DNA from: the human T2T-CHM13v2.0 reference genome, Homo sapiens
Length of the DNA stretch: 64,000 nt
Reading direction: 5' to 3' (one strand)
NCBI RefSeq assembly: GCF_009914755.1
Contig: NC_060931.1
Part shown: positions 4,522 to 48,780 of the stretch, in pieces
How positions within the stretch are numbered: position 1 is the stretch's first letter
Layout: every line of letters begins with the position of its first letter
The notes under the pieces: generated by a model
The model's database searches: none
What the model was told of the DNA's origin: nothing
What the model saw: the letters and a program-made list of their open reading frames with translations, nothing else
Made by a program: the position numbers and the translations under genes

Positions 4522-5372
4522 TGTGATGATTAATTTTATCTGTCAACTTGAGGGAGGCTGAGGCACAAGAATTGCTTGAGCCTGGGAGGTGGAAGTTGCA
4601 GTGAGCCAAGATCGTGCCACTGCACTCCAGCCTGGGCAACAAAGTGAGACTCCATCTCAAAAAATAAAATAAAAATACAATACAATACAATAAAATTGGC
4701 CGGGCACAGTGGCTCACACCTGTAATCCCAGTACTTTGGGAGGCCAAGGTGGGGGGATCACTTGAGGTCGGGAGTTCGAGAACAGCCTGGCCAACATGAT
4801 GAAATCCCGTCTCTACTAAAAACACAAAAATTAGCCGGGCATAGCGGCACATGCCTGTAGTCCCAGCTACTCAGGGAGCTGAGGCAGGAGAATCGCTTGA
4901 ACTCAGGAGGCGGGGGTTGCAGTGAGCCGAGATCATGCCACACTGCACTCCAGCCTGGGCGACAGAGTACAACTTTGGCAAAAATAAAATAAAATAAATA
5001 AAATTTTATCTGTCAACTTGGCTGGGCCACAATGCCCAGATACTTGGTCAAACATTATTCTGGCCCCATCCAATTGATTGAAGGCCTGAATAGAACAAAA
5101 GGCTGACACCCACCCACTCCCCAACCCACACCCGAAGAGGGACTTCTGCAGCAGGCTGCCTTTGGACTTTGTCTGCAACATCAGTTCTTCAGGGTTCACT
5201 GGCAGACTGCCTTTGAACTTGAGCTGCAATGCTTTCCTGAGGCTTCCCTGGTAAGATTTCAAACTTGCCAAGCCTTCACAATCACATCAGCCAATTCCTT
5301 AAGACAAATATTTTTATATGTATATACACACACATCCTTTTGGTTCTGTTTCTCTGGGAGCCCTGCTAATAT
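4522..5372 (+). mobile_element. MLT2 (ERVL) LTR interrupted by a truncated Alu (4551-4697) and a full Alu (4698-5000)
   Basis: TGTGATGATTAATTTTAT.TGTCAACTTG start, GGTTCTGTTTCTCTGG end; 19-bp duplication AATTTTATCTGTCAACTTG (4532-4550, 5002-5020) brackets the Alus. Confidence 0.82.
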
Positions 5373-46734: not shown

Positions 46735-47528
46735 CACCAGTTTCTATTTAACTGGCAAAAAAAAAAAAAATTCAATTTGATTGGTTGTCAAAAAAGACAG
46801 AGATACACAAAAATACCTGTATGTCATCATCATTTTGATGGCATATAACTTCACCCTACAATCTTTTTCAATATGTTTTGTTTTGTTTTTAATTTCAGAG
46901 AAGGCTACTTGGACCTAAAGGAATGAATTAGGAAGCGGTCTACTACCAAAGTACAATGAAGGTCAGTTTTCTTCATACCTTAATATGAAAAACGTTTTAA
47001 AATGTCTCAATTTCCCTATGCTAACCTCTGGTCACAGAGGCTTGAGGGCTTCCTATAGTACCAAAGTATGACTTGCCAGTTAAAAAGAAAACGAATTCTT
47101 GCCCCCAGGGGTAAAGATAACAAATTTAGAACACTATGACATACATCTATTAATATTTGCAGAAGGAGTATATGTTGTTACATTAACATACAGAAATTGC
47201 ATAGTTGATCCAGAGGGAAGTCTGGAGAGTACAGGGATGGAAAAAAGGAGGAGGATGGAAAAGAATGGGAACTAAAACTTAGGTGACTACGTTAAGGATT
47301 ACCCATGAGAGCAAGACACAGGATAAAGTACTGAAAACAAAAAAAAAAACTTAATGTAACCACTTATTTGAATAAATTGATTCATATGAATCCAATTTGA
47401 TAGATAAAAAAAGATCAAATTTGATAATACCCAGGAAAATATAGTACCTATATCTGAGTTATCTCAATTTATCTCAACTACCTCATTGGCAAAAAGATTG
47501 TCTCTCCTATCACTAAAAACTAATTTCT

Positions 47529-48117
47529 TTTTTTTTTTAAAAGGGCTCAAGGGCAGTGACTGCCCCACTCCACCACAGAGTGGGAGAGGGCTGGACCCCA
47601 GTGCCACTTTCGGCCACCCCTGGGCCACACGGCCACCCCTATCCCTGGGACAGGGACTGCAGGGTCACACCCTCAAACAACCACGCCTCAGCCATACTCG
47701 CGCCACACTTTCCAAGCCTGTCCCAGACCAGGGACAAGCCCCTAGTAGGGTTGGGGGAGGAGACTAGAACTAGAGAGGTGGGACACCAAGCATGGGCACC
47801 CCTGCAACCTCGGCCACCCCCAGCATGGCACCATGCCCCTGAGCACCGCCAGCTTGGAAAGGCATCGGATGGAGACGGGCGCTTTTCGACGAGATACCCG
47901 CCACTTGCTCTGGGATCCCGGAGAGGGTGGGCAAGCGTGGACCAGGGAAGGAGGCCCCCAGGGGTGTTGGGAGGGAGTTTGAGAGGGAGGAAGTAAGAGA
48001 GACGGATGGCAACGGAGACGCCAGGCATGCGCGAGGGGGTGGACAAACCCTGTGTCCAGGGCTGACTTTGAATAGATGGCAGGGAGGGAGCTGCTCTGCT
48101 ATGTATGAAACCACGAC
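47529..48117 (-). pseudogene. Retrotransposed pre-rRNA fragment: last ~75 nt of 28S (48043-48117) + ~510 nt 3'ETS-like + A tail (SINE28-like)
   Basis: Minus strand reads GGTCGTGGTTTCATACATAGCAGAGCAGCTCCCTCCCTGCCATCTATTCAAAGTCAGCCCTGGACACAGGGTTTGT = 28S 3' end; perfect 16-bp TSD CTAAAAACTAATTTCT at 47513-47528 and 48118-48133; poly-T at 47529-47538. Confidence 0.92.
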
Positions 48118-48491
48118 CTAAAAACTAATTTCTGTAAGATACACCATAAAGGTAAAAATAATGCAAGTGTTCAGCTGACAGTAAGTATAAATGGTACTCA
48201 TTTTCATTCTTAGCTGGTTCTGACCTTTAGCGATCCATAGAAAGTACATTCATGAAAATAACCAGTTTTAAGCACACAAACAATAAAAGCATATACACTT
48301 GATATAAAATGGCCGTAAGTCAAGTATTTTCAAAATGTTTGATTTCAGAACCTTTGATGGTTCATTAAGATAGCATAAAAACAACCTTCAGAAGAAAGGA
48401 ATAAGCTGATATACCCAGCATCATATCTGATGACACCTTACAACTCAAACAGGGCTTAGACATTTTTATCTTTTTTAAAAATGCACTCTTA

Positions 48492-48780
48492 TAGCCTGGT
48501 GTGGTGGCTTATGCCTGTAATCCCAATACTTTGGGAGGTCAAGGCAGGAAAACTGCTTCAGGCCAGCCTGGGCAACACAGCAAGACCCCACCTCTACAAA
48601 AATTCTTTTAAAAATTAGCCAGGCTTGGTGGCACATGCCTTTCCTAGCTACTGGAGACGATGACGGTGGAGGATGGCTTGAACCCAGGAGCTCTATGTTA
48701 CAATGAGCTATGACTGCCCTGCCACTGAACTCTAGCCTGGGCCACAGAGTGAGATACGGTTTCTAGAACAAACACAAAAA
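48492..48780 (+). mobile_element. AluJ
   Basis: Highly diverged dimer. Confidence 0.85.

What the first reader, a model, noticed from the sequence alone, without database searches (positions are those of the whole stretch)
47513..48133. Retroposed pre-rRNA 3' end (28S tail + whole 3'ETS): SINE28-like element and fossil of an ancestral rDNA spacer
Seen: a 589-bp GC-rich island in AT-rich DNA with a perfect 16-bp TSD (CTAAAAACTAATTTCT) and an A tail on the minus strand. It begins with the last ~75 nt of 28S rRNA and continues ~510 nt past the mature 28S end. From recall, the distal part (CAGTCCCTGTCCCAGGG...GGCCGTGTGGCCC...GGGGTCCAGCCCTC) resembles the human 3'ETS just upstream of the first Sal-box terminator, with CpG decay; no Sal box is visible. 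Established: L1 machinery retroposes polyadenylated cellular RNAs, and a 28S-3'-derived family (SINE28) has been described in mammals. Inference: the template was an unprocessed, oligoadenylated Pol I transcript running roughly to the termination site. Its ETS looks longer than the modern human one, so it may preserve spacer sequence since erased from rDNA by concerted evolution. It may also belong to a family with a fixed 5' end.
Basis: partly seen in the sequence, partly recalled or inferred. Interest (0 to 1): 0.8.

Follow-up and report, generated by a model that had tools for sequence, protein, structure and literature searches.

The report
Retrocopy of an ancient pre-rRNA tail
A 589-base dead copy of the tail end of an ancient ribosomal RNA precursor was pasted into chromosome 7 by reverse transcription, preserving spacer sequence and the natural transcript end that today's human ribosomal genes have since changed.

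Summary
Window 47529-48117 (minus strand) is a 589-nt GC-rich insert between perfect 16-nt direct repeats. It ends in A10.

It starts with the last 76 nt of 28S rRNA and continues for about 500 nt. That stretch is colinear with the 3' external transcribed spacer (3'ETS) of the genome's own rDNA (0 of 300 shuffles reach the alignment score).

Older DNA-level rDNA relics found here carry the same long spacer: the published sd28alu copies, five relics beside the acrocentric rDNA arrays, and a chr19 group. They run on, 17-20 nt past the point where this insert turns into poly(A), into a decayed Sal-box terminator. So the template RNA ended at the natural 3' end of a Pol I primary transcript.

About 160 nt of the insert have no counterpart in modern human 3'ETS but are present in the relics. 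They are therefore lost ancestral spacer.

It is not a SINE28 in the published sense, because 500 nt of spacer lie between the 28S end and the tail, and it is absent from that paper's table. It does share the recurrent 5' start of five SINE28 copies. Only one other spacer-bearing retrocopy was found, on chr1.

The insertion could not be dated here. It is a neutral fossil and a new variant of the 28S retropseudogene.

The parts
47513..47528 (.). Target-site duplication, copy next to the A tail
   Evidence: Perfect 16-nt direct repeat CTAAAAACTAATTTCT. There are 2 matches in the window, and 0 of 100 shuffles give 2.
47529..47538 (-). Poly(A) tail, A10 on the minus strand
   Evidence: Read directly. 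DNA-level paralogs have pyrimidine-rich spacer here instead of A.
47539..47542 (-). TTTT at the RNA 3' end, part of the T/pyrimidine-rich tract upstream of the terminator
   Evidence: Relics read CTTT or CCTT followed by CC at this point, so only 2-3 of the 4 T are clearly templated.
47539..48041 (-). 3' external transcribed spacer of an ancestral rDNA (about 501-503 nt), CpG-depleted
   Evidence: Colinear with modern human 3'ETS (0 of 300 shuffles reach the score). Aligns over its whole length to the sd28alu and array-side relics at 62-65% identity, E 1e-35 to 7e-56.
47586..47825 (-). Distal ETS block (el 293-532) still alignable to modern human 3'ETS just upstream of Sal box T1
   Evidence: blastn el 293-532 against L002 1690-1931 gives 59% identity, E 1.4e-5. 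See also the alignments.
47933..48003 (-). Ancestral spacer segment absent from modern human rDNA (el 115-185, 71 nt)
   Evidence: It lies opposite a gap in both modern rDNA rows and is present in all 8 sd28alu and array-side relic rows.
47879..47919 (-). Ancestral spacer segment absent from modern human rDNA (el 199-239, 41 nt)
   Evidence: El 131-262 is 90 of 132 identical to the 12q12 relic.
47541..47577 (-). Pre-terminator segment absent from modern human rDNA (el 541-577, 37 nt). It contains the 6-bp palindromic stem GGGCAG/CTGCCC (47551-47565).
   Evidence: Present in the sd28alu/array-side rows and two chr19 rows, and partly in the third chr19 row and the chr1 retrocopy; absent in modern rDNA. 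The fold is no more stable than shuffles.
48042..48117 (-). Last 76 nt of 28S rRNA, the 5' end of the retrocopy
   Evidence: 69 of 76 identical to modern 28S, with 1 deletion; 5 of the 7 substitutions lie at modern CpG sites. rDNA array hits appear.
48118..48133 (.). Target-site duplication, copy next to the 5' end of the retrocopy

Best explanation
This is a 5'-truncated, L1-type (target-primed) retrocopy of the 3' end of an RNA polymerase I primary transcript. It contains the last 76 nt of 28S and the entire unprocessed 3'ETS of an ancestral rDNA.

The RNA ended at the natural Pol I stop, in the pyrimidine/T tract 17-20 nt upstream of the first Sal-box (TTF-I) terminator. It then acquired a short A tail and was reverse-transcribed into a T-rich nick at 7q22.3. 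That produced a 16-bp target-site duplication.

The copy has no function. It has decayed neutrally, losing CpG, while the rDNA arrays went on to lose about 160 nt of this spacer and became much more GC-rich.

Shown here: the anatomy, the colinearity, the position of the RNA end relative to the terminator, and the antiquity of the extra segments.

Inferred: the polymerase, the adenylating enzyme, the L1 machinery and the age.
For: Retroposition hallmarks: a perfect 16-nt TSD (0 of 100 shuffles) and an A10 tail.

Template identity: the 28S tail is contiguous with the spacer. El 1-96 matches 39 rDNA units at 84.5-86%. The rest is colinear with modern 3'ETS up to about 30 nt before the first GGGTCGACC (z 4.6, 0 of 300 shuffles).

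Position of the RNA end: in all 6 DNA-level relic loci examined (four sd28alu copies and one chr19 copy, one array-side relic), homology continues past the insert's poly(A) point. It runs through a CCTCCTC-type pyrimidine tract into GGTCAACCAG (in one, GGTTGATCAAC), 17-20 nt downstream. Modern rDNA has CCTT, then 19 nt, then GGGTCGACCAG at the same place.

Literature on the Pol I stop: Nielsen and Zenkin 2025 (PMC12366685, passages read) state that Pol I stops within a T- or pyrimidine-rich tract 15 bp upstream of the roadblock site. [quoted passage not shown]

A second retrocopy: the chr1 locus (L034) ends 10 nt earlier in the same tract, followed by 20 A's and then an Alu.

Antiquity of the extra segments: el 131-262 is 90 of 132 identical to the 12q12 relic and 77 of 130 to the array-side relic.

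Adenylation of rRNA: polyadenylation of human rRNA is on record (Slomovic 2006, PMC1474067, listing and abstract start only), as is polyadenylation of incomplete Pol I transcripts (Shcherbik 2010, as cited in Longo 2015).
Against: The polymerase is not shown. The RNA ends in TTTT, which is also a Pol III terminator. It is the first run of four T on the sense strand of the insert (my reading).

The relics have only 2-3 T at this point, so one or two of the four T are unexplained.

Identity to modern 3'ETS is low: 180 of 327 aligned columns, or 61% if the 30 CpG-type differences are set aside. The case for homology therefore leans on colinearity, the shuffle test and the bridging relics.

Rfam did not report the 76-nt LSU tail.

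The nick site TTTCT/GTAAG is only a loose match to the L1 endonuclease consensus as I recall it.

No empty orthologous site could be examined.
Confidence: 0.82

Rival explanations
1. The template was a Pol III transcript, as in the SINE28 model of Longo et al. It started inside the 28S tail at about LSU 4958, read through the 3'ETS and ended at the first T4 run. It was then retroposed like a SINE.
For: The 5' end coincides with that of 5 of 27 SINE28 in Longo Table 1, which start at LSU 4958-4963. Those authors report Pol III-dependent SINE28 transcripts. The RNA ends in TTTT, the first T4 on the sense strand.
Against: All 8 relic rows that reach this point, and the modern rDNA, have only 2-3 T there, which makes a poor Pol III terminator. 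The end coincides with the expected Pol I stop upstream of the Sal box. With about 17% T, having no earlier T4 in 500 nt is likely by chance (my estimate). Most SINE28 in the table (21 of 27) end at LSU 5034, the mature 28S end. That points to processed Pol I products rather than a Pol III unit.
Confidence: 0.1
2. The insert is a DNA-level rDNA fragment, like the sd28alu copies and the array-edge relics, moved by recombination or segmental duplication. Its A run and direct repeats would then be fortuitous.
For: Several DNA-level relics with the same long spacer exist in this genome.
Against: The insert stops exactly at the transcript end and replaces the terminator with A10. It has a perfect 16-nt TSD (0 of 100 shuffles). 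Both flanks are single-copy in the genome. It carries none of the Alu or IGS sequence that accompanies the DNA-level copies.
Confidence: 0.03
3. The insert is a template-switch chimera: a 28S tail joined during reverse transcription to an unrelated GC-rich RNA.
For: L1 chimeras with 28S segments are reported (bioRxiv 10.1101/2025.02.02.635956, passages read). Identity to modern ETS is low.
Against: The same 28S-to-spacer junction and the same spacer order are present in the sd28alu and array-side relics, which continue into a Sal box. The shuffle test supports ETS homology.
Confidence: 0.02

Closest known systems
SINE28 (Longo et al. 2015, PMC4994717; sections 5 and 9, Table 1 and passages read)
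   Same: Both derive from the 3' end of 28S and have a TSD and an A tail, with L1-type insertion. The 5' start, at about LSU 4958/4959, is the same as that of the 74-76-bp copies at 1p22.1, 1q23.1, 8q11.21 and 9q33.3.
   Different: In SINE28 the A-rich tail follows the mature 28S end (LSU 5034). Here about 500 nt of unprocessed 3'ETS lie between them. Total length is 589 nt, against 65-437 bp. The locus is not in Table 1 (no chr7 entry). The paper's main text has 0 occurrences of 'ETS'. No source-gene lineage is evident.
sd28alu clusters (Longo et al. 2015) and rDNA relics beside the arrays (compare Robicheau et al. 2017, PMC5381670, passages read)
   Same: They share the same ancestral long 3'ETS, including the segments lost from modern rDNA. 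Identity to the insert is 62-65% over el 1-577.
   Different: These are DNA-level copies. They carry about 535 nt of 28S, continue through the Sal box into spacer and Alu sequence, and have neither an A tail nor a TSD at the transcript end.
Human 28S rRNA retropseudogenes (Wang, Pirtle and Pirtle 1997; seen only as a reference)
   Same: They are L1-type retrocopies of rRNA.
   Different: I could not read that paper. The retrocopies described in what I read derive from mature 28S, not from an unprocessed precursor with its spacer.

Membership tests
L1-mediated processed retrocopy of a cellular RNA | Flanking target-site duplication | tested here: met
   16 of 16 nt identical. The repeat occurs only twice in 64 kb, and 0 of 100 shuffles give two matches.
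L1-mediated processed retrocopy of a cellular RNA | A tail at the 3' end of the copied RNA, not encoded in the source DNA | tested here: met
   A10 at 47529-47538. The source-type DNA (relics and modern rDNA) has a pyrimidine tract and a Sal box there.
L1-mediated processed retrocopy of a cellular RNA | T-rich/purine endonuclease target at the tail-side junction | tested here: inconclusive
   The pre-insertion site reads TTTCT/GTAAG on the plus strand. This is a loose match to the consensus as I recall it.
L1-mediated processed retrocopy of a cellular RNA | Empty site in lineages that diverged before insertion | not testable with these tools
   No primate genomes are available. The flanks are single-copy, so no paralogous empty site exists.
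47S/45S pre-rRNA 3' end (Pol I primary transcript) | 28S 3' end contiguous and colinear with 3'ETS | tested here: met
47S/45S pre-rRNA 3' end (Pol I primary transcript) | 3' end in the T/pyrimidine tract about 15-20 nt upstream of the TTF-I (Sal box) site | tested here: met
   The end lies 17-20 nt upstream of the GGTCAACC core in the relics, and 19 nt upstream of GGGTCGACCAG in modern rDNA at the homologous CCTT. The published figure is 15 bp (PMC12366685).
47S/45S pre-rRNA 3' end (Pol I primary transcript) | Stable RNA hairpin upstream of the pyrimidine tract | tested here: inconclusive
   Hairpins are predicted, including the 6-bp stem GGGCAG/CTGCCC. The fold is not better than shuffles (z 0.33 for the insert, z 0.56 for modern rDNA).
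SINE28 | [quoted passage not shown] | tested here: met
   76 nt, 69 of 76 identical to modern 28S.
SINE28 | A-rich or simple-repeat tail immediately after the LSU end | tested here: not met
   About 500 nt of 3'ETS separate the 28S end from the tail.
SINE28 | SINE-like length (65-437 bp in Table 1) | tested here: not met
   The insert is 589 nt (Table 1).
SINE28 | Pol III-dependent transcription | not testable with these tools
   This needs experiment.
SINE28 | Multiple copies descending from a source element | tested here: not met
   A genome search with the ETS part gave 8 matches in 7 loci. Besides the insert itself, only one is a tailed retrocopy (chr1). Over their shared region the p-distance between the two is 0.32, and the chr1 copy has a different 5' end. 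The search reports lower bounds only.

The most novel reading that the evidence does not exclude
The ETS-bearing fossils in this genome fall into four groups: two retrocopies (chr7 and chr1), the array-side/sd28alu lineage, and the chr19 group. Together they record the ancestral primate Pol I terminator region and an in vivo 3' end of its primary transcript.

They would show that the human lineage deleted about 160 nt of 3'ETS, including the segment directly upstream of terminator T1.

They would also bear on SINE28. The recurrent -77 start of 28S retrocopies appears whether the template ended at the mature 28S end or at the Pol I stop. It would then be a property of the RNA template, such as a reverse-transcriptase block or a cleavage site. 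That would make SINE28 a set of retropseudogenes of Pol I products rather than a Pol III-driven SINE.
Probability: 0.4. Interest if true: 0.6.

Novelty: new variant of a known kind. Interest (0 to 1): 0.45.

Why it matters
rDNA spacers are homogenised by concerted evolution, so their past states are normally erased. A retrocopy is a dated snapshot taken outside the arrays.

This one, read together with the DNA-level relics, gives three things:
- direct sequence evidence of spacer segments the human arrays have lost;
- a natural 3'-end map of an ancestral Pol I transcript, placed 17-20 nt upstream of the TTF-I site;
- a test case for the disputed origin of SINE28-type elements, Pol I product or Pol III SINE.

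For the KMT2E region itself it is a neutral pseudogene with no sign of function.

Tried and rejected
Rfam. The e-value scan of 47000-48700 returned only two weak Alu/SRP-like matches. The 76-nt LSU tail was not reported, so the 28S assignment rests on the genome's own rDNA.

RNA folds. The terminal 101 nt of the insert (z 0.33) and the modern pre-T1 region (z 0.56) fold no better than shuffles. The hairpin idea is therefore compatible but unsupported.

Tree. An ML tree of 13 rows on the shared 3' region, with the near-duplicate rows rDNA_13 and DJ_15 left out, is star-like: 5 of 10 inner branches are open. Modern rDNA sits on a long branch of deviant composition. It gives no order of departure and no date.

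Paralogous empty site. Both flanks are single-copy.

Dating.
- Non-CpG change is low: 2 of the 7 substitutions in the 28S tail lie at non-CpG sites, and 0 of 32 TSD positions differ.
- CpG loss is heavy: 5 of 6 CpG in the 28S tail are gone, and CpG o/e in the spacer is 0.39.
- Divergence from modern ETS is 45%.
- These signals pull in different directions.
- My rough inference of 25-60 million years rests on recalled substitution rates and is not a result.

Longo supplementary Table S1, the list of 109 LSU fragments, is in a PDF that could not be read. The readable supplements have 0 'chr7'. I therefore cannot say whether the 76-nt 28S piece was listed there as an untailed fragment.

Not-in-print claim. 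It rests on these searches:
-;
- Longo et al. (0 occurrences of 'ETS');
- Robicheau et al. (0 'retrotranspos', 0 'chromosome 7');
- Garcia et al. 2024 (passages);
- the L1-chimera preprint (0 'transcribed spacer', 0 'pre-rRNA').
Subscription journals are not covered.

Full report
**What is there**

Window 47513-48133 holds a 589-nt insert (47529-48117). Its GC content is 0.56-0.645, in DNA of about 0.28-0.38 GC. It lies between two perfect copies of CTAAAAACTAATTTCT, at 47513-47528 and 48118-48133. The 16-mer occurs nowhere else in the 64-kb window. None of 100 dinucleotide shuffles gave two matches.

Read on the minus strand, the insert ends in TTTT followed by ten A (47529-47538). Below, 'el' numbers the insert 5' to 3' on the minus strand, so el 1 is window 48117.

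**The template**

A search of the window's own genome with the insert returned the rDNA arrays. Thirty-nine hits on C13 and C15, spaced 42.5 and 47 kb apart, match el 1-96 at 86-87%.

Taking one rDNA unit (L002), the first 76 nt of the insert correspond to the last 77 nt of 28S. There are 7 substitutions and one deletion, and 5 of the 7 substitutions lie at modern CpG sites.

Beyond the mature 28S end, sensitive blastn and a local alignment show colinear matches. El 102-135 aligns to L002 1623-1660. El 293-532 aligns to L002 1690-1931 at 59% identity (E 1.4e-5). That block ends about 30 nt before the first GGGTCGACC, at L002 1961.

Both sequences are GC-rich, so I ran controls:
- The spacer-to-spacer local score is 47.75, against 28.1 +/- 4.3 for 300 dinucleotide shuffles. 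The highest shuffle score is 44.2, so none reaches it.
- The neighbouring terminator region scores 20.0.
- The reversed modern ETS scores 29.5.
- Its reverse complement scores 24.25.

The spacer part has 20 CpG (o/e 0.39) and GC 0.64. The modern spacer has 71 CpG (o/e 1.08) and GC 0.83. Rfam did not report the short LSU tail.

**Independent fossils of the same spacer**

Searching the genome with the spacer part alone found six other loci. These align to el 1-577, or to its 3' half, at 62-65% identity, with E values from 1e-25 to 7e-56. Two further searches, each seeded with one of these loci, enlarged the set. It now has four groups.

(i) The sd28alu segmental duplications of Longo et al. 2015. 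These lie at 12q12, 12p11, 8q11, 21q11 and two sites on Y, plus a copy at C15:14.81 Mb. They carry about 535 nt of 28S followed by the spacer.

(ii) Five near-identical relics on the acrocentric short arms: C13:5765153, C14:2094141, C15:2501046, C21:3102904 and C22:4788400. On C13 and C15 they lie 22.0-22.1 kb below the lowest rDNA hit. They have the same 28S-spacer-terminator layout. In the tree the C15:14.81 Mb copy groups with them (support 100/99).

(iii) Three chr19 p-arm copies.

(iv) A second retrocopy at C1:37.73 Mb (L034).

**Where the RNA ended**

In all 6 DNA-level loci examined (five, one array-side relic), homology runs past the point where the chr7 insert turns into poly(A). After CTTT or CCTT comes a CCTCCTC-type pyrimidine tract. 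Then, 17-20 nt downstream, comes GGTCAACCAG; in the chr19 copy it is GGTTGATCAAC.

That differs from the human Sal box GGGTCGACCAG (PMC11358750, passage read) by one CpG-type change. Modern rDNA reads CCTT, then 19 nt, then GGGTCGACCAG at the homologous place.

The template RNA therefore ended 17-20 nt upstream of terminator T1. [quoted passage not shown] My recollection of the mouse work (termination 11 bp upstream of the Sal box, followed by 10-nt trimming) was not checked here.

The chr1 retrocopy ends 10 nt earlier in the same tract, followed by 20 A's. By my reading it sits inside an Alu, and a second Alu has landed in its tail. That would make it primate-age.

**Lost spacer**

The insert's spacer is about 501-503 nt. 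Modern human rDNA has 383 nt from the 28S end to the Sal box, which is about 364 nt to the equivalent CCTT.

In the 15-row alignment, four stretches of the insert face gaps in modern rDNA:
- el 115-185 (71 nt)
- el 199-239 (41 nt)
- el 272-283 (12 nt)
- el 541-577 (37 nt)

Conversely, modern rDNA has only three small extras, of 10, 9 and 6 nt.

These stretches are not foreign. El 131-262 is 90 of 132 identical to the 12q12 relic and 77 of 130 to the array-side relic, as similar as the rest of the spacer. The last segment is also present in two of the three chr19 copies, and in part in the third chr19 copy and the chr1 retrocopy. It contains a 6-bp palindromic stem, GGGCAG/CTGCCC. However, the terminal 101 nt fold no better than shuffles (z 0.33), and neither does the modern pre-T1 region (z 0.56).

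Over the spacer, the insert and modern rDNA share 180 of 327 aligned columns. Thirty of the 147 differences are of the CpG-decay type.

All fossils are closer to one another (p-distance 0.29-0.44 between groups) than to modern rDNA (0.40-0.50). Modern rDNA sits on a long branch of deviant composition in a star-like tree. The arrays have changed a great deal since these copies left.

**Mechanism**

The TSD, the untemplated A tail at a transcript end, the 5' truncation inside 28S and the single-copy flanks fit target-primed reverse transcription of an A-tailed RNA. The plus-strand target reads TTTCT/GTAAG, a loose fit to the L1 nick site as I recall it.

That the RNA was a Pol I product is inferred from where it ends. 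A-tailing of rRNA and of incomplete Pol I transcripts is on record (Slomovic 2006, listing and abstract start only; Shcherbik 2010, as cited by Longo et al.).

The main rival is a Pol III transcript ending at TTTT. That run is the first T4 on the sense strand. But all 8 relic rows that reach this point, and modern rDNA, have only 2-3 T there, so the source probably lacked a Pol III terminator. One or two of the four T remain unexplained; they could be a source variant, later C-to-T changes, or untemplated U.

**Relation to SINE28**

Longo et al. 2015 list 37 human 3'-LSU fragments (sections 5 and 9, Table 1). None is on chr7. The main text has no occurrence of 'ETS', and the readable supplements have no 'chr7'. 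Supplementary Table S1 is an unreadable PDF.

Their SINE28 are 65-437 bp, and the tail follows the mature 28S end. This insert fails both points. It does share its 5' start with five of the 27 SINE28, which start at LSU 4958-4963. The insert's 76-77 nt of 28S put its start at LSU 4958/4959.

The same start appears whether the template ended at the mature 28S end or at the Pol I stop. That suggests a property of the RNA, such as a reverse-transcriptase block or a cleavage site, rather than a transcription start. This is an inference. It is the basis of the bolder reading that SINE28 are retropseudogenes of Pol I products.

**Age**

Not resolved.
- Non-CpG change is low: only 2 of the 7 substitutions in the 28S tail lie at non-CpG sites, and 0 of 32 TSD positions differ.
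- CpG loss is heavy: 5 of 6 CpG in the 28S tail are gone.
- Divergence from the modern spacer is large.

With recalled substitution rates I would guess 25-60 million years. Only orthologous empty sites and primate rDNA can settle it.

**Verdict**

The element is a neutral pseudogene. As far as the searches listed under Tried and rejected reach, it is an undescribed variant of the 28S retropseudogene. It preserves an ancestral 3'ETS and the natural 3' end of a Pol I primary transcript.

Noticed in passing
L046-L050 (C22:4788400, C21:3102904, C13:5765153, C15:2501046, C14:2094141): All five acrocentric short arms carry a near-identical decayed rDNA relic: about 535 nt of 28S, the long ancestral 3'ETS and GGGTCAACCAG. 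On C13 and C15 it lies 22.0-22.1 kb below the lowest rDNA 28S-end hit. The C15:14.81 Mb copy groups with these relics (support 100/99), which suggests that the pericentromeric copies descend from an array-edge relic.
   Followed up: partly
L034 1338-2340 (C1:37.73 Mb): A second ETS-bearing retrocopy. It corresponds to el 278-589 by blastn (about 262 onward in the alignment) and ends in 20 A's. By my reading it is nested in the middle A-rich linker of an Alu that has its own flanking repeats, and a younger Alu has inserted into its tail.
   Followed up: partly
L036, L053, L054 (C19:23.23 Mb, 23.21 Mb, 21.62 Mb): Three chr19 p-arm copies of the distal 3'ETS. At least one runs on into a decayed Sal box. 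All three begin near el 245-281, close to where the chr1 retrocopy begins.
   Followed up: partly
window 48042-48117 compared with L032 (12q12): The insert and the 12q12 sd28alu copy share two G-to-C changes at former CpG sites in the 28S tail (CTCCCTGCCATC). The five other sd28alu rows lack them. This is an apparent parallel change.
   Followed up: no
window 48494-48539 and 48618-48700: Weak Metazoa_SRP matches (19 and 15 bits, gathering score 70), most likely Alu elements about 360-500 bp from the insert.
   Followed up: no
L002/L020 against all fossils (alignment): The modern human 3'ETS has GC 0.79-0.83 and CpG o/e about 1, while every fossil is at GC 0.60-0.71. In the tree modern rDNA has by far the longest branch (0.69-0.87 changes per column) and a composition unlike the rest. 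Part of that contrast is CpG decay in the fossils; the rest would be GC enrichment of the spacer within the arrays.
   Followed up: partly
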